Virus record (IMG/VR): IMGVR_UViG_3300042879_003054
DNA from: a virus
Direction: 5' to 3' (one strand)
DNA length: 64,000 bases
The translations under genes were made by a program, and so were the position numbers. The notes beneath the pieces are model-generated. The model searched no databases, was not told the origin of the DNA, and saw nothing but the letters and a program-made list of their open reading frames with translations. Of the stretch, positions 403-27,585 are shown piece by piece (positions within the stretch are counted from its first letter, which is position 1; every line of letters begins with the position of its first letter).

Positions 403-1716
403 TTACCCGTTTTGAGGACCGTAAAGACCGTAACTATCACGAATTAATTTTACACTTGTAACCATTTGATTTCCTTCAAAATGATGTCTCAATTCTTTAA
501 TCAAATAATTTCCACTTTGCTCATCATCTGCTTCTTTATTATCCGATCTTTTGATTCTCGGAAATTGTGCATTTATAATATCTCCAACTTTCAGTTTTAT
601 ATTACAAGGTATAACCATATTTAGTGCTTGAGTGAATAATAAATTATATCTAGAATAAGACATTGACATATCCGCACCACTTCTTGACTTGCCACTTACA
701 GTTCCATCATTATTCAAATTTCCTCTATCAGAAATTTTAAACATAATTCTACTAATACTATCTCCAAATTCATCAGAAACAGCAATATTCTTAGACGCAC
801 CTAGTTTATTTTTAACTTGGTCTTTCACTGTGTATTTGTAAATATCTAAAGTGTTTGAATACAAATCAAAATAATATGTTTTATTTGAATACATACCAAC
901 TCTCAATGATTTCATCAAATCAATATTCTTTTCATACTTATAGTTTAAAATTCTAAAATTTGTTTCTACATTATTACTCTCAATGATTGGAGCATATTGA
1001 TAATTATATATTGATTCCTTATCGGCACTATTGTTTTGAATTTGAGTGCTTGAAACTAAACTATCAATACTTCTAAAATTAAACCCATCTTTGTTTTCAT
1101 AGAATAAGAATCCTGCAGTTCCTTTTGCGATTCCACTATTCTCTCCACCTGATGTTCCAGAGTTTTGACCATTTGCAGGAACTGCTTTTGGTCCCAACCA
1201 AGTCAAAGTATGAAATGGTTTTCTATTGTTTCCAATAAAAGAAAAATCATTTGATGTTCCTTCTATATTTTCACTCTTAAATTTTTTAGTTTTTAATACA
1301 TCTTTTAAAATTTTAGTTACTGTAGTTTGAATATTACCTGTATATTTTCTTTCACATCTGACAGTATCATTCGTCAAACCTTCACGAGAAACTAAGTGTA
1401 AAGTGAACATTTCACTTGACTTTTGTGCATCAAGATTGCTAACCTTATAAACATAAAAAGCAGTATCACCGTCAAATAAAAATTCACCAAATGCAGTATC
1501 AACACTAATGGAAACTTTTTCTCCACCACGAATTGGTAAAAGATTAAACAAACTTGTACTATTAACTATTTGTGCAGTAGCAGTTATACAAGGAGATAAA
1601 ATATCCTCAAAGTAATCAAAAAACAATAATGAATTGGTAATATCAATTTTTTTGCTACCATCTAATGATTGTATGATAAAATAATTTGGTTTAAATGCTG
1701 CTACAGATTGTGACAT
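403..1716 (-). CDS. Baseplate hub protein (gp27-like)
   Basis: 437 aa; YFEDILSP, FLFYENKDGFNFRSIDSL and SGNYLIKELRHHF motifs typical of hub proteins; upstream of gp5. Confidence 0.65.
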   Translation of the reverse strand: MSQSVAAFKPNYFIIQSLDGSKKIDITNSLLFFDYFEDILSPCITATAQIVNSTSLFNLLPIRGGEKVSISVDTAFGEFLFDGDTAFYVYKVSNLDAQKSSEMFTLHLVSREGLTNDTVRCERKYTGNIQTTVTKILKDVLKTKKFKSENIEGTSNDFSFIGNNRKPFHTLTWLGPKAVPANGQNSGTSGGENSGIAKGTAGFLFYENKDGFNFRSIDSLVSSTQIQNNSADKESIYNYQYAPIIESNNVETNFRILNYKYEKNIDLMKSLRVGMYSNKTYYFDLYSNTLDIYKYTVKDQVKNKLGASKNIAVSDEFGDSISRIMFKISDRGNLNNDGTVSGKSRSGADMSMSYSRYNLLFTQALNMVIPCNIKLKVGDIINAQFPRIKRSDNKEADDEQSGNYLIKELRHHFEGNQMVTSVKLIRDSYGLYGPQNG

Positions 1717-3812
1717 TAGCTTGCTGACAGATTAGTAAGTAACATAGTCTTCATAAGACTATTTACCAGTTGTCCTTCATCTGGACCAGGAAGAATTACA
1801 GTTCCTCCACCACCACCTCCAACTGGAATAAAGACTGGTTTTTGTTGTCCTCCTCCACCTTGAGGACTCATCATCATTGGTATAATTGTTGTAACCTGTT
1901 GTAGTTGATTATAAGAAGGGTATTGTTGGAGATTTTGAATCATTCCAGATTGATATGCAGCAATTGCCTCTGGAGTTAAATCTGGACCTCCTATTCCAGG
2001 TCTCTTTGAAGCATCCATTATTGCTTTAATTCTGGAAAGATTTGAATTTGGATCACTTGCTTCATTTGCAATAATAGATTTATGGTACATTACATTTAAT
2101 TTCTGTGCTTTTGCTAATTTTTCAACCAATTCAGCAGTTTTTAAATTATATTCCTTTTCTCCAGGAGCACCAGTTTCACCTTTTGTTACATCAGCGTGTC
2201 CTGCAAAAATATGATATGCACGTTTAGGGTCTTTCATCATTGCTTCAACTATTCTTTTTGCATTTGCTTCAGCACCTAATGCCATATCTGACTCTAGAAT
2301 ATTTCCACCTCTATTTGTAACACCCAATCCTCCTCTAAAATTTTTACCATAAGTCCCGAAACTAGAAACAAGTGCTTGAGAAACAGCAGTATCTGGACTG
2401 GTATTGCTTGGGATTAATCCTGTCTTTTGTCCTTTTGCATTTGGGTCTGCGTGTAATTCTAAAACAAAAGGATTAGAACCTGCTCCCGAAACTCCTGCCT
2501 TTGGTTTGACTTTTACATTGCCACCGAATCTAAAATACTTATCTCCCTCACTTGTAGGTATTTCTAATTTTTTACTTCCTTGTCTAACTTCAAAATGAAC
2601 GTGAGGTCCCGTAGAATTTCCTGTGCTTCCTACATTTCCAATTACAGTTCCAGGTTCTATTTGTTGTCCTTCTTTGACTGATATTTTACTTAAGTGCCCA
2701 TAAAAACTACTAGAACCACCAGGATGTGCAATTTGTACAGCATATCCATACCCACCATCATTAAATTGTGCGTATGTTACTTGACCAGGTTGAATCACAC
2801 TTACTGGTGTTCCTTCCGTAATAGCATAATCAACACCACTATGAATTCTTCCCCATCTCCAACCATAAGGAGATGAAGTATATTTGCTGGGCATTTGACC
2901 ACCTTCAGCAGTCATATCTGGAAGTTCTCCTGGAATTTCAGGAGCATCTGGAATTGCATCTGGGTCTAAACCGTAATCCAACATCATTTCATCAGAACCA
3001 GCAGCAGCTGCGGCACCATTTACCACAGAAGCAAATGACTTATAGACAAAGTTTTCAAACTTTCCTACAGAGTCACTAAATCTGTTTATTACATCACCAA
3101 ATCCACTTTCTTGAACTGATGCCTTTTGTTGTTGTTCTTGTGCCTTTAGTTTTTCTTCAACTTTTCCAGACACACCTCCAGCACCACCAGTTGCAAGTTC
3201 ATATGCTCTATCTGCGGTGTAACCACCCAAAAATCCACCTGCCATACTTCCAATTACAAAACCAAGCCCAGGTATTGGAATTAGTGCTTGCCCAATGGCA
3301 CCACCAAGTAATGAACCAGCAAGATTGCCCACTGCTCCCGATGCTGCTTGACCTGTGCTTTCTCCCTCTGCCAATCCCTGAGCAAAATCCAATCCAGAAA
3401 AAACTGCATTCAAAATACCTACAGATTTGAGTCCTCCAAATTGTAACTTAGAACCAGAAACTATTGGTTTTGGTGGTCTCAATCCTCTTGTATTTTGAGG
3501 AGCACCCATTTTTCCTCTTGGAGGGAACATATTACCAAGAAAACCAGCAACATCAAGTGCCCCTCCAAGTAAAGATGATAATAAATTTCCAGGAGAACCA
3601 AAACTTGAAGCAATGTTTAAGTTCGCAAGTTCTTTAATTTTTCTTTTTTCAGGTAATTTTATTCTATTAATTTCTTTATTTTGAGTGTTTAAAAACTTAG
3701 AGAAATCAACAACATCTCTCTGAATTCCTTTTAGTCTTCTTGAGGAATCTCCACTAAAAGAAACTATGTTATTGGAAGCAGAAACTAAAGGAGAAGAAAG
3801 TACTTTTTTCAT
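1716..3812 (-). CDS. Virion hub/tape-measure-like protein with M23 peptidase and permuted amidase domains
   Basis: HSGVD and STGPHVHFE (M23 HxxxD/HxH); Gly-rich hydrophobic segment; amidase-like AGHAD/EKEYN/LHAD motifs. Confidence 0.8.
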   Translation of the reverse strand: MKKVLSSPLVSASNNIVSFSGDSSRRLKGIQRDVVDFSKFLNTQNKEINRIKLPEKRKIKELANLNIASSFGSPGNLLSSLLGGALDVAGFLGNMFPPRGKMGAPQNTRGLRPPKPIVSGSKLQFGGLKSVGILNAVFSGLDFAQGLAEGESTGQAASGAVGNLAGSLLGGAIGQALIPIPGLGFVIGSMAGGFLGGYTADRAYELATGGAGGVSGKVEEKLKAQEQQQKASVQESGFGDVINRFSDSVGKFENFVYKSFASVVNGAAAAAGSDEMMLDYGLDPDAIPDAPEIPGELPDMTAEGGQMPSKYTSSPYGWRWGRIHSGVDYAITEGTPVSVIQPGQVTYAQFNDGGYGYAVQIAHPGGSSSFYGHLSKISVKEGQQIEPGTVIGNVGSTGNSTGPHVHFEVRQGSKKLEIPTSEGDKYFRFGGNVKVKPKAGVSGAGSNPFVLELHADPNAKGQKTGLIPSNTSPDTAVSQALVSSFGTYGKNFRGGLGVTNRGGNILESDMALGAEANAKRIVEAMMKDPKRAYHIFAGHADVTKGETGAPGEKEYNLKTAELVEKLAKAQKLNVMYHKSIIANEASDPNSNLSRIKAIMDASKRPGIGGPDLTPEAIAAYQSGMIQNLQQYPSYNQLQQVTTIIPMMMSPQGGGGQQKPVFIPVGGGGGGTVILPGPDEGQLVNSLMKTMLLTNLSAS

Positions 3813-5587
3813 TATCCGTCTACTATATTATAAACCATTCTTGAATATAAAACTAAAAAATTATCAGTGTTTGCAGAAGGTAATAATGGAACTGATGGAC
3901 CATTTTTTTGAGTTGATGGTGGTGCAGAAATACCTCCTCCACCACCTTGAGATTGTTGAGGCATTGCACCAGACAAATCTATTGGTACAATATTTGTTTG
4001 TGATTGTGCTGCTGTTTGAGCAACTTGAGAAACACCTGTTGCTAAGTTGTTGTATTCTTCTAATTTTAATTTTCCAGCCTTATATGCTGCAGCATATTCT
4101 TTAGGCAATTCCTCATAACTACCTCCTATTCCTGGTTTTGGTTTATATGTTTTTTCCAATCCTGGAGTCAATTTTTTATACCATTCTCCAGTTTTAACTG
4201 ATCCATATTCTGGATCAGGACCCCCAGAATAACCACGATCAGTTCTATAAACAATATACTTATCTCTAAGTAATTGTGATATTTTAGCACCAGAATAACC
4301 TTGAGTGGTTAATGCTTCAGGAACTCCAGCACCTCTCGTCTTAATTTCATTTGCAGAAAATCTTGCTTGGAATCTCAATCCCTCAGCAGTTTCTTTTATT
4401 TGACCTTTGGTCTCATCCCAAACCCCAGCCTTTTTGGCCTGATCGATTAAAGCAGTTCTTCTATCTTGATTCCAACTAAACATACCAGTATTAGGAATTT
4501 TTGCAGAAGGATCAGTATGAGTTCCAAACAAGTTTTTATTGTCCATCCCACCTTCTCTGCCAATTTCAGCAATTAATCTTTTTGCTCCCTCATCAGTATA
4601 TCCAAGATTTCTATATTCATCATATAAAACTGCTGATTTGCCTGCCATAGTAGATATATCACCACTTTTCAAATTACTATAATCCACTGGAGATCCAGGA
4701 CCAGGACCTCCAGGACCAGGACCTCCAGGACTTCCCCCACCACCTCCTGCACCACCACCAGGAGGTTTGGAAGGACCCTTTCCAATACCAATCATTGTAT
4801 TAATTGCTGTAATAAATCTTTCTATTGCAGAACTAAACGTTGATATGATGTCTCCACCATCTCCAGGTTGAAGCATTCCTGCTCTAATTTCATCAACATT
4901 AGAAAGAGCATTCACTGTGCCAGCACCAACAGCACCCAATCCAAGAGCACCAGCACCAAGGGCAAGCATTTTGCCTCTTCCCTTGAACATATTACCAAGT
5001 CCTCGTGGTGCGCTCTTTCTGACACCACCCATGGGAACATCAACATCAATGTCAATTCCACCTCCACCACCTGGAGATGCTTTTGGAAGATTTGATAATT
5101 GTTGTACTATTTTTACAATGACCTGACGAATCAATTTTGCAACTTCAAAACTTTCTGTAAATGATTTAGAAAGATTTTTTAAATTGTCACTTATTCTATT
5201 CACAAATTTTTTGTTGCCAAAAAACTGAATGAATTGTATTACACTCTTATAGGTACTTAAAAACTTACTTAGAATGCCGGTTGGTTTCGCAGAATCAACA
5301 TCAGATACTCTTTTCTTATAATCTGTAGTGAAACTTTGAAGAGTATTATTTAAAGTGCTTGTTATATTGTTTGTAATATTTGTAGAAATAGTACTTACGA
5401 TTGAATCTACTGAAGATGGGACTGGTTTTGCAGTCCCTCTTTGAAATCCTACTATTTTATTTGCAGCAGAAGCAATTGAAGATGTTCCAAGAAAAGAACC
5501 ACCAGAAATAAAATTTTTGGCGAGTTGTTGGTTTGTATTCTGCTTACCTACTATTCTTTCTGGGTTCAGAACCGAACCTATTACCAT
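3812..5587 (-). CDS. Virion hub-associated protein with phage tail lysozyme-like domain
   Basis: LIAEIGREGG...GMFSWNQDRRTAL...FQARF resembles the Phage_lysozyme2 family; Gly/Pro linkers; architecture parallels the neighbouring gene. Confidence 0.65.
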   Translation of the reverse strand: MVIGSVLNPERIVGKQNTNQQLAKNFISGGSFLGTSSIASAANKIVGFQRGTAKPVPSSVDSIVSTISTNITNNITSTLNNTLQSFTTDYKKRVSDVDSAKPTGILSKFLSTYKSVIQFIQFFGNKKFVNRISDNLKNLSKSFTESFEVAKLIRQVIVKIVQQLSNLPKASPGGGGGIDIDVDVPMGGVRKSAPRGLGNMFKGRGKMLALGAGALGLGAVGAGTVNALSNVDEIRAGMLQPGDGGDIISTFSSAIERFITAINTMIGIGKGPSKPPGGGAGGGGGSPGGPGPGGPGPGSPVDYSNLKSGDISTMAGKSAVLYDEYRNLGYTDEGAKRLIAEIGREGGMDNKNLFGTHTDPSAKIPNTGMFSWNQDRRTALIDQAKKAGVWDETKGQIKETAEGLRFQARFSANEIKTRGAGVPEALTTQGYSGAKISQLLRDKYIVYRTDRGYSGGPDPEYGSVKTGEWYKKLTPGLEKTYKPKPGIGGSYEELPKEYAAAYKAGKLKLEEYNNLATGVSQVAQTAAQSQTNIVPIDLSGAMPQQSQGGGGGISAPPSTQKNGPSVPLLPSANTDNFLVLYSRMVYNIVDG

Positions 5588-5611
5588 CTTGCTTTCTTAT
5601 TTTAGAATTAT

Positions 5612-5785
5612 TTATTGAGCATTTTGTTGTTTTAGTTTCTCATCTTCAATATGTTGTTGGAGAAGTGCTAAGTAAATATCTCTTTCCCAAGGCATCATAT
5701 TTTCAACATCCCTAATCGGCCATTTATGAAATTGAAGTAATGCAAAATTAATTCTAAAGTATGACTCCAATTCCATATAAGCCAT
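5612..5785 (-). CDS. gp51: Baseplate hub assembly catalyst gp51
   Basis: Hand translation MAYMELESYFRINFALLQFHKWPIRDVENMMPWERDIYLALLQQHIEDEKLKQQNAQ (MMPWERDIY motif); follows gp26; absent from ORF track. Confidence 0.88.
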   Translation of the reverse strand: MAYMELESYFRINFALLQFHKWPIRDVENMMPWERDIYLALLQQHIEDEKLKQQNAQ

Positions 5786-5787
5786 AC

Positions 5788-6516
5788 TCAACCGAAAAAA
5801 GATGTTAACCCCTCCAACGTAACTTCACTTTCCACTCCAGTCTTTGGATTCTTAACTTTTACTTTGTGTGCAAGTTTTGGCATTGTATTAAAAAAGTTTT
5901 CAACCTGTTTGAATTGATTTGAATCAAGTGTTTCAATCCAAGAAACTAATTCTTTTTTAGTACAATCAGATGCTGCCCAACTTTCTTCTTCATTAAAGAT
6001 CATATCAATACAAGAAGCAATAATATCTAAAGATTTTTCAATATTTGATGTACTTTGCTCTGTGTTAAAATCAAAATTATTTTTAATAAACTGGTCTAAA
6101 GATGGATACTTCATTCTTAAAACTAAAGAACTATCAAGTTTAATATCCGTGCTATGATTTTCTTCTTTTTGAACTTGAATCTCATCAATATAAATTGTGA
6201 CTGGAACTTGAGTTTCCATATCATCACCACAAGTAATAATTAATTCAATAGACTCACCAACAGATTTTGAACGAAGGTTTAAGAACAAATATTCAATATC
6301 AAAAGTTGGAAGTTCTTCTACTTTAATTGCTTTTGTTAAAATACAATCTTTTAATACTTGCTTGATTGCATTTGTAATTTCTTTTGTATCTTGACTTTCA
6401 AGAGCAAGAATTAATATCTTTTCTTCTTTGACTAGAAATGGTCTGTATTTAATTGTTTTCCCAGTTGATGGCAAAACCAATTCATACGTTGGTGTAGAAA
6501 TCTTAGGTAATGGCAT
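5788..6516 (-). CDS. gp26: Baseplate hub subunit gp26
   Basis: MPLPKISTPTYEL...YRPFLVKEEKIL...FDIEYLFLNLRSKSVGE. Confidence 0.92.
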   Translation of the reverse strand: MPLPKISTPTYELVLPSTGKTIKYRPFLVKEEKILILALESQDTKEITNAIKQVLKDCILTKAIKVEELPTFDIEYLFLNLRSKSVGESIELIITCGDDMETQVPVTIYIDEIQVQKEENHSTDIKLDSSLVLRMKYPSLDQFIKNNFDFNTEQSTSNIEKSLDIIASCIDMIFNEEESWAASDCTKKELVSWIETLDSNQFKQVENFFNTMPKLAHKVKVKNPKTGVESEVTLEGLTSFFG

Positions 6517-6540
6517 AATTCAATAGTTCAGTGCTTTTAT

Positions 6541-7245
6541 TTATTTACTCCTCGTTTTATGTTTTTCAATTACATAACGGGAGTAACTAAAGGTAACTAT
6601 TGTTTTAGTGATTGTACTTCCTTCATAAGTCACTGGCATTGCTGCTATGTTTGTAGGGAAAGCATCAATCAAACGATAAGTTATTCTTGGCACATCATTA
6701 GTTCTATTCAAATCTCTTTCAAATTTTACAATTGATATAATTCTCTTATATGTGTCGGGATATTTAAGTCTAAAGAAATCTGGACGATTTTTTGCGTCTC
6801 CCTGTCCCCTTGAATTTGCTTTAACTTCTCCAGCATCTGTATAAACAGGATTGATATAATTCATCCATTCTTCAAAAAGACGAATGAGTTTATAATCATA
6901 ATCAACATAAAATGTCATTGTAACATCTGGATAAACTCTTTTAGTTGGAAACCTCTCTATCACTCCTTGACGTGACCCAATCTCTTCCGTGACATCAAAG
7001 GTTGCGCCAGGAAGTGAAGTCTCCGCACAATAAAAGTCAAATTTTGAAAATTCTCCATCACTTGTAATTCCTGCATCTGCCAACCAATTCATCAATAAAT
7101 CACCATCACCACGATTAGTCAAGTGCAATGATACCTTAAATTGACTTGTAAGGGATAATTTACCAAAGATTTCTAATGCTTCATCTGTTGTCTTATACAA
7201 AAAACCAACTTCAGGTTGTCCTGCTCCTGGTCCTCTTGATGCCAT
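6541..7245 (-). CDS. Tail-tube-fold protein (gp54/gp19-like tube initiator)
   Basis: CAETSLPG, MTFYVD, FEEWMNYI and AFPTNI motifs of the tube fold. Confidence 0.7.
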   Translation of the reverse strand: MASRGPGAGQPEVGFLYKTTDEALEIFGKLSLTSQFKVSLHLTNRGDGDLLMNWLADAGITSDGEFSKFDFYCAETSLPGATFDVTEEIGSRQGVIERFPTKRVYPDVTMTFYVDYDYKLIRLFEEWMNYINPVYTDAGEVKANSRGQGDAKNRPDFFRLKYPDTYKRIISIVKFERDLNRTNDVPRITYRLIDAFPTNIAAMPVTYEGSTITKTIVTFSYSRYVIEKHKTRSK

Positions 7246-20646: not shown

Positions 20647-20755
20647 TTTTAGTTTCCTTTTCTTTATTATACCCCCTGTTCATGGGTCTGTAAAGTTGTG
20701 GCCAAGTATCACGAATGATCTCATCCAATTTATAAGGTGTTTCTGAACTAATCAT
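20633..20755 (-). CDS. Small hypothetical protein (40 aa)
   Basis: Hand translation MISSETPYKLDEIIRDTWPQLYRPM...; overlaps the gnd stop (ATGA). Confidence 0.5.
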   Translation of the reverse strand: MISSETPYKLDEIIRDTWPQLYRPMNRGYNKEKETKNEKV

Positions 20756-21783
20756 CTAACGTGATGTCCCCCAAACATAAACCTCATTCCGTTCAAGATT
20801 TTTGCTCCAAATGATCCAAGATTGCGTGAGTTAAATCTTTCAAATAGCGCAGTAGTAATGACAGGAGCGGGAACCCCCAGATCCACAGCGGCAGAAACAG
20901 TCCAACGACCCTCACCGCTGTCGGATACGCCTCCAGAGAACTGTTTAAGGCTACCATCCCTGCGTAGCACATCAGCAGTAAGGTCAAGTAACCAAGACCC
21001 AACCACGCTACCACGACGCCATAACTCAGCAACCTCAGCAACATCAATATCATAGCAATAGGATTCCGGGTCTGCCATTGGGGCAACCTCTGCATCTCCT
21101 TCTCTGACATACTGAGCACCTGCATTTGCATTCTTGATAATGTTGAATCCTTCTGCGTATGCCTGCATAATACCATACTCAATACCATTATGCACCATCT
21201 TTACAAAGTGCCCTGCACCTGGTCCACCACAATGCAACCACCCATATTCAGCAGAAGTTATGTCTGAGTCAAATTGAGTCCTGGGGGCAGCGTCAATTCC
21301 TGGGGAGAGTGCATTAAAAATGCGCGAACAAGTGGAGACTGCAGTATCTCCACCTCCAACCATAAGACAGTATCCACGATCCAAACCGTAAACACCACCA
21401 CTAGTCCCGCAATCAATATACTGGATACCCTGCTTTGCAAGTCGTTCTGCTCTCTTCCGACTGTCCTTAAAATTGCTATTGCCATGATCAATAATAATAT
21501 CTCCTTCACCACAATATCGTAGTAACTCATTAATCGTCTCCTCTACTGTTTCTACAGGAACTACCATCTGAAAAATTCCTGGTTTATTTTGTCCCTTGAC
21601 TACTTGAACAAGGCTTTGTATAGAAGTTGTAACACCATTAACATATCCGTTTTTGTATGCTTCTTGTGCTTTTTCATAATTTCTACGATACCCCCAAACT
21701 TCTATTCCTGCCTTCATCATACGACGAGACATTCCTTCACCCATTCTACCTAATCCAATTAATCCTACTTTCATTTTTTCCAA
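20752..21783 (-). CDS. gnd: 6-phosphogluconate dehydrogenase
   Basis: GLGRMG, DCGTSGG, GHFVKMVHNGIEY and DSGEGRW motifs. Confidence 0.96.
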   Translation of the reverse strand: MEKMKVGLIGLGRMGEGMSRRMMKAGIEVWGYRRNYEKAQEAYKNGYVNGVTTSIQSLVQVVKGQNKPGIFQMVVPVETVEETINELLRYCGEGDIIIDHGNSNFKDSRKRAERLAKQGIQYIDCGTSGGVYGLDRGYCLMVGGGDTAVSTCSRIFNALSPGIDAAPRTQFDSDITSAEYGWLHCGGPGAGHFVKMVHNGIEYGIMQAYAEGFNIIKNANAGAQYVREGDAEVAPMADPESYCYDIDVAEVAELWRRGSVVGSWLLDLTADVLRRDGSLKQFSGGVSDSGEGRWTVSAAVDLGVPAPVITTALFERFNSRNLGSFGAKILNGMRFMFGGHHVR

Positions 21784-23721: not shown

Positions 23722-24798
23722 TTAGAGTGCGTTGCCCCTCGGGAGAACTTCCTCTGGAAATACGAACCGTTCCCCTGGTTGGTCTACTGGTGCCATCCAT
23801 GCCCTTAACCCCTCATTAAGAAGTATATTTTTTGTGTAAAATGTCTCAAATTCCGGGTCTTCTGCGGCACGAATCTCCTGACTTACAAAATCATAAGCAC
23901 GAAGATTGAGAGCCAAACCAATAATACCAATAGAACTAGTCCAGAGACCCATAACGGGAACAAAAAGCATGAAAAAATGTAACCAACGCTTATTGGAAAA
24001 AGCAATTCCAAAAATCTGCGACCAGAATCGATTTGCAGTAACCATTGAATAAGTCTCTTCCTCTTGCGTAGGTTCAAATGCTTTGAACGTGTTTGCTTGA
24101 TTTCCATCTTCAAATAGAGTGTTTTCTACAGTTGCTCCGTGAATTGCACAGAGCAGTGCTCCTCCCAGTATACCAGCAACTCCCATCATATGAAAGGGGT
24201 TGAGCGTCCAGTTATGGAAACCTTGTAAGAATAGGAGGAACCTAAAAATCGCAGCAACACCAAACGACGGCGCAAAGAACCAACTGGATTGACCCAGTGG
24301 ATACATTAGGAATACAGAAACGAATACTGCAATGGGACCAGAGAATGCGATTGCATTATAAGGACGAATACCGACCAGACGAGCAATCTCAAACTGACGA
24401 AGCATAAATCCAATCAGAGCGAAAGACCCGTGGAGTGCCACAAAAGGCCAGAGTCCCCCAAGTTGGACCCAGCGGACGAAATCCCCCTGAGACTCAGGAC
24501 CCCAAAGTAGAAGAAGAGAATGACCCATAGCATCAGCAGGCGTTGACACAGCTGCCGTGAGGAAATTAGCACCCTCAAGGTAAGAAGACGCCAACCCGTG
24601 GGTGTACCAACTTGTAGCAAACGTTGTGCCAGTAAGCCAGCCACCAATGGCCAAATAAGCAGTGGGAAAAAGAAGTAATCCAGACCAACCCACAAAGACA
24701 AAGCGATCTCGTTTAAGCCAGTCATCCAGGACATCGAACCACCCCCTTTGTGAAATAGGTTGTGAAAGTGTAGAAGAAACCATAGTCTCCATTGTCAT
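23722..24798 (-). CDS. psbD: Photosystem II D2 protein
   Basis: Full-length D2: [16 protein letters not shown] ... [10 protein letters not shown]. Confidence 0.99.
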
Positions 24799-26505: not shown

Positions 26506-27585
26506 TCAACCGATGGTTGGAGCAGTCAAGGCCACAGGTGTGTTCTCAACAGCAGCAAGGTCCAAAGGAAAATTATGTGCATTTCTTTCGTGCATCACTT
26601 CGAGTCCGAGTCCAGCACGATTCAGAACATCAGCCCAGGTATTAACTACACGGTTCTGACTATCAACGATTGACTGGTTGAAATTAAAGCCATTCAAATT
26701 GAAAGCCATCGTAGAAACACCAAGAGCAGTGAACCAGATGCCTACAACGGGCCAGCTAGCAAGGAAGAAGTGCAGTGAACGTGAGTTATTAAAGGAAGCA
26801 TATTGGAAAATAAGGCGTCCAAAATAACCGTGAGCAGCAACGATGTTATAAGTCTCTTCTTCTTGACCGAACTTGTAACCATAGTTCTGCGATTCAGTTT
26901 CAGTTGTTTCACGAACCAGTGAAGAAGTCACAAGAGAACCGTGCATTGCGGAGAAAAGACTTCCTCCGAAGACACCAGCAACTCCAAGCATATGGAATGG
27001 GTGCATCAGGATGTTGTGCTCTGCCTGGAACACAAGCATGTAGTTGAACGTACCAGAGATACCAAGAGGCATACCATCAGAGAAAGAACCTTGACCGAAA
27101 GGATAGACCAAGAATACGGCAGTCGCAGCAGCAACAGGAGCACTGTAAGCAACCATAATCCAAGGACGCATACCAAGACGGTAAGAAAGTTCCCACTCAC
27201 GACCCATATAGCAGAAGACACCAATGAGGAAGTGGAAGACTACCAACTGGTAAGGACCACCATTATAGAGCCATTCATCAAGACTTGCTGCTTCCCAGAT
27301 AGGATAGAAGTGAAGTCCGATTGCGTTGCTTGAAGGAACAACAGCACCAGAAATGATGTTGTTTCCGTACATGAGTGAACCAGCAACAGGTTCACGAATA
27401 CCATCAATGTCCACCGGAGGTGCGGCAATGAAGGCGACGATGAAACATACAGTAGCAGCAAGCAGTGTAGGAATCATCAGAGTTCCGAACCAACCAACAT
27501 AAAGGCGGTTGTTCGTTGAAGTAACCCACTGGCAAAATTGTTCCCAGGAGTTAGTAGATTGTCTTTGTGCAATTGTAGCAGTCAT
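26506..27585 (-). CDS. psbA: Photosystem II D1 protein (intronless)
   Basis: Full-length D1: [11 protein letters not shown] ... [13 protein letters not shown]. Confidence 0.99.

What the first reader, a model, noticed from the sequence alone, without database searches (positions are those of the whole stretch)
2005..2475. Circularly permuted N-acetylmuramoyl-L-alanine amidase in a virion hub protein
Established Amidase_3 motif order: GH...GA...E..N...R...SxHxN...LxE. Seen here: the second half comes first (FVLELHAD ... GLGVTNRGGNILE ... AKRIVEAM), followed by the first half (HIFAGHAD..GAPGEKEYNLKTAELVEKL...NLSRIKAI). All putative Zn ligands and the catalytic Glu are present. Inference: a natural circular permutation fused behind an M23 endopeptidase, which standard HMMs would probably miss.
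Basis: partly seen in the sequence, partly recalled or inferred. Interest (0 to 1): 0.7.

Follow-up and report, generated by a model that had tools for sequence, protein, structure and literature searches.

The report
Circularly permuted amidase in cyanophage tail protein
A tail-module protein of this T4-like cyanophage carries, behind an M23 peptidase, a cell-wall amidase domain whose two halves are swapped relative to all solved Amidase_3 enzymes, and standard annotation misses it.

Summary
Bases 2005-2475 encode residues 446-603 of a 698-aa minus-strand ORF (1716-3812), and every quoted motif is there. An M23 domain (323-415) precedes them.

The domain is a small family: 30 clusters among 1.84 billion representatives. 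All 33 non-redundant members have the window's order. Half A carries LExH and ILE; half B carries FAGHxD and GE.

Seven natural relatives carry the halves in the opposite, canonical Amidase_3 order:
- two metagenomic proteins, P0081 and P0083
- five proteins from cultured cyanophages, including S-H9-1 gp216, the syntenic counterpart with the same M23-then-amidase layout

A family profile permuted in silico matches P0081 in one collinear piece (97 bits, E 5e-23). The native profile matches it in two swapped pieces.

The three zinc-ligand equivalents (H539, E552, H454) and the catalytic-Glu equivalent (E507) are invariant.

Enzyme activity and the window model's zinc-site geometry were not tested. 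"Hub" is inferred only from gene context. I found no publication on a permuted Amidase_3. It is a new variant of a known kind, of moderate interest.

The parts
1716..3812 (-). Whole ORF, 698 aa (P0001). N-terminal Gly-rich, hydrophobic region; M23 peptidase; permuted amidase-like domain; conserved Gly-rich C-terminus ending LLTNLSAS.
2568..2846 (-). Peptidase_M23 domain, aa 323-415. The HxxxD motif (H324, D328) and the HxH motif (H404, H406) are present.
   Evidence: (102.3 bits against a cut-off of 28.7)
2229..2477 (-). Half A of the amidase-like domain, aa 446-528. It equals the C-terminal half of canonical Amidase_3: strand with LELH (H454, equivalent to the third zinc ligand), short strand, helix, strand NILE (E507, equivalent to the catalytic Glu), last helix.
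1995..2228 (-). Half B of the amidase-like domain, aa 529-606. It equals the N-terminal half of canonical Amidase_3: strand FAGH (H539, equivalent to the first zinc ligand), helix starting at GE (E552, second ligand), strand, helix with DPNSNLSR. The short linker KDPKRAY (pLDDT about 94) joins the old C-terminus to the old N-terminus.
3812..5587 (-). Upstream neighbour P0003, 591 aa, Gly-rich, with a weak lysozyme-like match (Phage_lysozyme2, E 0.052). It holds the position of Syn9 gp14 and S-MbCM6_009, which carry the canonical-order amidase domain.
403..1716 (-). Downstream neighbour P0002, 437 aa, tail protein (phrog_350). It is homologous over its full length to S-H9-1 gp217, which fixes the synteny between P0001 and S-H9-1 gp216.
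5788..6516 (-). gp26-like baseplate hub gene (phrog_150). It marks the baseplate and tail-hub module.

Best explanation
Residues 446-606 of this tail/baseplate-module protein form a zinc amidase domain of the Amidase_3 (MurNAc-L-Ala amidase) fold that has undergone a natural circular permutation. The ancestral order is strand1(GH)-helix1(E)-strand2-helix2, then strand3(H)-strand4-helix3-strand5(E)-helix4. It was cut between helix2 and strand3. The old C-terminal helix is now joined to the old first strand by a 7-residue linker.

The four residues equivalent to the Amidase_3 active site (H539, E552, H454 for zinc; E507 as general base) are retained. The domain follows an M23 endopeptidase in the same chain. 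The adjacent gene product carries a lysozyme-like domain.

Inferred function: the protein is packaged in the virion tail or hub and opens a local hole in the cyanobacterial peptidoglycan during infection. The amidase would strip stem peptides from MurNAc while M23 cuts the peptide cross-links.

Shown here: the permutation relative to natural relatives, the Amidase_3 fold of a canonical-order relative's domain, and residue conservation. Inferred: zinc binding, the bond cleaved, virion location, and timing.
For: 1. The family HMM in native order hits P0081 and P0083 in two swapped pieces. Permuted in silico at residue 528/529, it gives one collinear hit over HMM positions 4-167 (97.2 bits, E 5e-23 at a library size of 1.84e9). 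P0083 scores 64.2 bits. Reversed-sequence controls score nothing above 8 bits.
2. MAFFT places the separate halves of the window and five loci contiguously on P0081 and P0083, in B-then-A order, at 27-44% identity to P0081.
3. Cultured cyanophages carry the canonical order: Ma-LMM01 gp094, S-CREM2 ORF208, S-MbCM6_009, Syn9 gp14 and S-H9-1 gp216. S-H9-1 gp216 has the same M23-then-amidase layout and the same downstream tail-protein gene.
5. The window's own model (pLDDT 78.8) has the same secondary-structure elements in rotated order and no sequential fold match, as expected for a permutant.
6. H454, E507, H539 and E552 are invariant in the aligned members (17 and 9 sequences) and visibly kept in the 33-member alignment. 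The GH, E and HAD motifs align with those of AmiC once the order is restored: 103 columns against 36 in native order.
7. Context: the baseplate gene cluster. Relatives pair the domain with other wall hydrolases such as M23, SleB-like and lysozyme. S-CREM2 ORF208 was found in the virion proteome (PMC10665884).
Against: Sequence similarity to bona fide Amidase_3 is sub-threshold throughout. Pfam gives 13.7-19.1 bits against a cut-off of 27. Half A alone has no Pfam or hhalign match. hhalign probability is only 29% even in restored order, against a narrow AmiC-type profile.

The fold link therefore runs through one canonical-order relative's predicted structure, not through a permutation-aware alignment of the window's own model. 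Zinc-site geometry in that model could not be inspected.

Family-specific invariant residues (E452, D456, D541, R531) differ from typical Amidase_3, so the substrate could differ. No activity data exist. The single-origin tree split has weak support (0.32).
Confidence: 0.82

Rival explanations
1. The domain has the permuted Amidase_3 fold and an intact metal site but cleaves a different bond. Candidates are a gamma-glutamyl or stem-peptide carboxypeptidase activity like PghP or the M14/FGase relatives, or an amide in another envelope polymer.
Confidence: 0.12
2. The domain is catalytically dead. It serves as a peptidoglycan-binding or purely structural module of the tail protein.
For: No activity data exist. 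Many LytM and amidase-like domains in cell-division proteins are inactive regulators (general knowledge). The domain lies inside a long structural protein.
Against: All four active-site equivalents are invariant across sequences down to about 31% identity, and are kept in the canonical-order relatives. Dead domains usually lose such residues.
Confidence: 0.05
3. There is no permutation. The window domain is an unrelated alpha/beta fold (flavodoxin, PTS-IIA or DegV-like) that shares short motifs with Amidase_3 by chance.
Confidence: 0.01

Closest known systems
Amidase_3 / MurNAc-LAA zinc amidases (Pfam PF01520), for example CD27L 3QAY, PlyPSA 1XOV, CwlV 1JWQ, PHICD111 EAD 9JZO, Ami1/Rv3717, AmiA/B/C
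   Different: The chain order is rotated, with the last half first. The sequence is below the Pfam threshold. The motif is ExHxD instead of SxHxN. No AmiC-type regulatory helix. The domain is embedded in a 698-aa tail protein behind M23.
Synechococcus phage S-H9-1 gp216 (YP_010669528.1), the syntenic counterpart in a cultured Kyanoviridae phage
   Same: The same gene position, upstream of the phrog_350 tail protein. The same architecture: Gly-rich N-terminus, then M23, then an amidase-like domain.
   Different: Its amidase-like domain is in canonical B-then-A order (PGH...GE...LEIH...FE). Its length is 970 aa.
Microcystis phage Ma-LMM01 gp094 and phrog_30576 'baseplate protein', including metagenomic P0081
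   Same: The nearest canonical-order relatives of the domain; P0081 is 27-44% identical to the aligned halves. Baseplate context, with an M23 protein encoded next door.
   Different: The domain is C-terminal to a gp5/VgrG-like OB-fold (Phage_base_V) and is in canonical order.
Circularly permuted NlpC/P60-papain-like peptidoglycan hydrolases (recalled from the literature; not checked here)
   Same: A precedent for natural circular permutation within a cell-wall hydrolase superfamily.
   Different: An unrelated cysteine-peptidase fold.
Earlier scan note e1-5301219: a LysM protein with a permuted Amidase_3 domain in another genome
   Same: Also a natural permutant of the Amidase_3 fold, in a mostly phage-borne family (per that note; unchecked).
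   Different: There only the first strand and helix moved to the end, and one zinc His became Asp. Here two strands and two helices moved and all ligands are kept. That makes it a different cut point, so probably an independent event.

Membership tests
Amidase_3 (Pfam PF01520) | Score at or above the Pfam gathering threshold (27 bits) | tested here: not met
   13.7 bits for the whole protein. 18.4 bits for half B alone and nothing for half A. Canonical-order relatives are also below threshold (19.1 and 14.3 bits).
Amidase_3 (Pfam PF01520) | Collinear order: strand1(GH), helix1(E), strand2, helix2, strand3(H), ..., strand(E), helix | tested here: not met
   The order is rotated, with strand3(H)...strand(E)-helix first and strand1(GH)...helix2 second.
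Amidase_3 (Pfam PF01520) | Three-layer alpha/beta/alpha MurNAc-LAA fold | tested here: inconclusive
Amidase_3 (Pfam PF01520) | Zinc ligands His, Glu, His | tested here: met
   H539, E552 and H454 are invariant. They align with the GH, E and HAD motifs of AmiC once the order is restored. Their geometry was not inspected.
Amidase_3 (Pfam PF01520) | Catalytic Glu at the end of the last strand | tested here: inconclusive
   E507 (NILE) is invariant. It sits at the end of the strand before the last helix and aligns with E508 of P0081. Its equivalence to the Amidase_3 Glu rests on position in the fold, not on a residue-level structural alignment.
Amidase_3 (Pfam PF01520) | MurNAc-L-alanine amidase activity | not testable with these tools
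   This needs a muropeptide assay.
Peptidase_M23 (Pfam PF01551) | Pfam score above threshold, plus the HxxxD and HxH metal motifs | tested here: met
   102.3 bits against a cut-off of 28.7, residues 323-415. HSGVD at 324-328 and HVH at 404-406.
Natural circular permutant (relation to the canonical-order cyanophage amidase-like domains) | Both halves are homologous in swapped order, and one collinear match appears after in-silico permutation | tested here: met
   Two swapped pieces become one piece of 97.2 bits (P0081) and 64.2 bits (P0083). The same holds for five cultured-phage proteins. All 33 non-redundant family members are A-then-B. Six relatives scored B-then-A; S-CREM2 gave only a B half-profile hit, and no tandem forms appeared.

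The most novel reading that the evidence does not exclude
The permutation arose once, in place, inside a tail protein that still exists in canonical order in cultured relatives such as S-H9-1 gp216. The new chain order, together with family-specific invariant residues (E452, D456, D541, R531), would go with a changed property: a different substrate bond, or a different folding order suited to a protein that must pass through the tail tube and refold in the periplasm. That would make this a natural matched pair for studying how circular permutation changes an enzyme.
Probability: 0.15. Interest if true: 0.7.

Novelty: new variant of a known kind. Interest (0 to 1): 0.52.

Why it matters
1. Annotation blind spot. 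Every homologue carries only the M23 Pfam domain, and the only source name given is an M23-type endopeptidase name. A second lytic domain in a widespread cyanophage tail protein is therefore missed, and the canonical-order cyanophage subfamily is also below the Pfam threshold.
2. Protein evolution. The permuted form and canonical-order forms occur in the same gene position in related phages. That gives a clean natural pair for testing how permutation arises and what it changes.
3. Phage biology. The result suggests T4-like cyanophages deliver a set of wall hydrolases (M23, amidase, lysozyme-like) in two adjacent tail-internal proteins, with the modules shuffled between lineages.
4. Literature. 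Two full-text searches found no paper on a circularly permuted Amidase_3. This scan has noted a different permutant elsewhere (e1-5301219), so the fold may tolerate permutation unusually well.

Tried and rejected
- P0081 and P0083 were not found in viral contigs, and P0081 was not found in metagenome contigs.
- The window's assembly is not held.
- Single-sequence and profile searches of PDB sequences gave nothing useful. The best amidase hit was 7agl at E 0.21.
- ESM Atlas gave no usable hit for the window domain.
- hhalign against an AmiC-type profile built here was weak: 16% probability in native order, 29% in restored order, and half A alone nil. That profile is narrow (at least 55% identity to AmiC) and contains the AmiC regulatory insert. 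A broad Amidase_3 profile could not be brought into the script box.
- Re-ordered sequences could not be sent to Pfam or to the folding tool under the rules, so natural canonical-order relatives were used instead.
- The OmpA-like reading (NCBIfam Loa22, 20 bits against a cut-off of 300) was rejected. Pfam OmpA does not hit and the score is at noise level.
- Synechococcus phage B23 gp10, the top tblastn hit of P0001, has M23 but no amidase domain.
- No tandem B-A-B-A intermediate was found.

Full report
**Location and observation**

The finding lies on the minus strand in a 698-aa ORF, window 1716-3812 (P0001). Bases 2005-2475 correspond to residues 446-603.

Pfam finds Peptidase_M23 at 323-415 (E 1.6e-29). 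It finds only a sub-threshold Amidase_3 match, in which residues 535-578 align to profile positions 3-48 of 174 (E 0.063). So the beginning of the amidase profile sits in the second half of the region.

The window is a T4-like cyanomyovirus. It carries photosystem II D1-family genes, a 6-phosphogluconate dehydrogenase, gp32-like SSB, a gp26-like hub, and gp48- and gp53-like baseplate genes. The ORF sits in the baseplate/tail-hub module, between a Gly-rich protein with a weak lysozyme-like match (P0003) and a phrog_350 tail protein (P0002).

**The family**

A word-index search found 52 homologues at 47-100% identity. All are about 700 aa and carry only the M23 domain in precomputed Pfam. An exhaustive profile search of 1.84 billion representatives found just 30 clusters. 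Some are short stand-alone proteins. Others are fused to additional wall hydrolases (M23, SleB-like Hydrolase_2, DPBB, Extensin-like_C).

After redundancy filtering, 33 members remain. Invariant residues across members down to about 31% identity are P448, E452, H454, D456, G465, I467, G486, E507, R531, G538, H539, D541, G545, G548, G551, E552, N573, N591 and R594 (converted to P0001 numbering).

**Proof of permutation**

When the family HMM was run back over the hits, two proteins matched in two pieces in swapped order: P0081 (634 aa) and P0083 (699 aa). Their sequences show the family motifs in the order FAGHxDV...GE...DPxSNWxR followed directly by LExH...G(V/L)IP...FR..L..P.RG..(I/L)LE.

With the 33-member profile in native order, P0081 gives two pieces: 63.7 bits for HMM 86-162 and 27.2 bits for HMM 3-88. 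When the alignment is permuted in silico after residue 528, the result is a single collinear hit over HMM 4-167: 97.2 bits, E 5e-23 at a library size of 1.84e9. P0083 gives 64.2 bits. Other cut points split the hit again, and reversed sequences score nothing above 8 bits.

MAFFT aligns the separately supplied halves of the window and five loci contiguously on P0081 and P0083, at 27-44% identity to P0081.

tblastn and the permuted profile then found the canonical order in cultured cyanophages:
- Ma-LMM01 gp094, a 'baseplate protein' with a Phage_base_V OB domain
- S-CREM2 ORF208
- S-MbCM6_009
- Syn9 gp14
- S-H9-1 gp216

Half-profiles give A-then-B in all 33 family members. They give B-then-A in the natural relatives except S-CREM2, where only half B scored. 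No tandem intermediates appeared.

S-H9-1 gp216 is the most telling case. Its M23 domain aligns collinearly with that of P0001, while the two amidase halves align in swapped order. The next gene, gp217, is a full-length homologue of P0002 (E 1e-39). The same gene therefore exists with either chain order in related phages.

**Link to Amidase_3**

Sequence evidence is weak:
- Pfam gives P0081 19.1 bits (profile 1-88), Ma-LMM01 gp094 14.3 bits (profile 3-110), and the window's half B 18.4 bits. The threshold is 27. Half A gets no hit.
- hhalign against an AmiC-type profile improves from 36 to 103 aligned columns when the order is restored. The longer alignment passes through the GH, E and HAD motifs, but probability is only 29%.

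Structural evidence is strong:
- Foldseek lists 29 matches at E <= 0.001; every one listed is an Amidase_3-type amidase, at probability 1.00.
- The ESM Atlas's independent model of P0081 gives TM 0.65-0.69 to Amidase_3 clusters and a feature score of 0.95 to MurNAc-L-Ala amidase clusters.

The window's own model (pLDDT 78.8) contains the same elements in rotated order:
- Window model: strands 13-20, 30-32, 69-73, 97-102, 138-141 and helices 41-50, 79-90, 117-134, 156-168.
- P0081 model: strands 361-366, 415-418, 444-451, 465-467, 504-510 and helices 392-411, 432-441, 477-486, 523-542.

The window model finds no sequential match in PDB or BFVD. That is what a permutant should do with sequential aligners.

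**Mechanism**

By alignment, H539 (FAGH), E552 (GE) and H454 (LELH) correspond to the His-Glu-His zinc ligands. E507 (NILE, at the end of the strand before the last helix) corresponds to the catalytic glutamate. All four are invariant.

The old termini are joined by the short linker KDPKRAY, which is modelled with high confidence. The new termini lie where canonical proteins have the loop between helix 2 and strand 3.

The most likely function is a virion-associated lysin. With the M23 domain in the same chain and the lysozyme-like domain of the neighbouring protein, it would locally degrade host peptidoglycan during tail penetration. Three lines support virion association:
- the baseplate gene context;
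- the recurrent pairing with other wall hydrolases;
- mass-spectrometric detection of S-CREM2 ORF208, a canonical-order relative, in purified virions (PMC10665884, Table 3).

Zinc binding, the bond cleaved and packaging of this particular protein are inferred, not shown.

**Origin**

In a FastTree of restored-order sequences, the 33 permuted members fall on one side of a single split from the six natural canonical-order sequences. That is consistent with one event, but support is weak (0.32).

Because the canonical order is that of the whole Amidase_3 superfamily, the window's order is the derived one. The usual duplication-then-truncation route is plausible, but no intermediate was seen.

**Novelty**

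Two full-text searches found no paper describing a circularly permuted Amidase_3. The co-occurrences refer to permuted phage genomes or to unrelated domains. The permuted form was absent from 50,697 deposited phage records.

I did not test that note. If it is right, this fold has been permuted at least twice at different cut points.

I rate this as a new variant of a known kind, of moderate interest.

**Limits**

- The window's genome is not held.
- No permutation-aware structural aligner and no model coordinates were available.
- Re-ordered sequences could not be submitted to Pfam or to the folding tool.

Noticed in passing
P0081 residues 355-544 (ESM Atlas): Three cyanobacterial protein clusters without any Pfam family match the canonical-order amidase-like domain at TM 0.87. 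One has 1,618 members of about 245 aa and is auto-named 'dehydrogenase'. This may be a large, unannotated host family of Amidase_3-like proteins and a possible source of the phage domain.
   Followed up: no
window 403-5587; L105, L107, L108, L110: The wall-hydrolase modules are shuffled between two adjacent tail-module proteins across cyanophages. In the window: lysozyme-like, then M23 plus permuted amidase. In S-MbCM6: amidase in gene 009, SLT/lysozyme in gene 010. In Ma-LMM01: OB-fold plus amidase (gp094), then M23 (gp095). In P0083: amidase plus M23 plus lysozyme in one chain.
   Followed up: partly
L015:4705-6796: In one IMG/VR relative (66% identity) the gene is split by a frameshift inside the amidase-like domain, giving ORFs 4705-6264 and 6233-6796. 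This is either a sequencing error or a broken copy.
   Followed up: no
L106 (S-CREM2 ORF208) and the adjacent ORF209: In the exceptionally long-tailed phage S-CREM2 (about 418 nm), two adjacent proteins, ORF208 and ORF209, span about 4.7 and 4.4 kb. Both are abundant in the virion proteome (PMC10665884). The window's pair P0003 and P0001 are 591 and 698 aa. The size difference hints that these lysin-bearing proteins act as tail-length or tail-internal proteins.
   Followed up: no
window 3812-5587 (-), P0003 residues 313-490: There is a lysozyme-like region below the Pfam threshold (Phage_lysozyme2, E 0.052). It matches phrog_6922 and phrog_19273, both of unknown function, at about 1e-11. This may be another under-annotated lytic domain.
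   Followed up: no
window 23722-24798 and 26506-27585 (-): Two photosystem II D1-family genes (probably psbD and psbA) and a 6-phosphogluconate dehydrogenase gene at 20752-21783. These are typical cyanomyovirus auxiliary metabolic genes.
   Followed up: no
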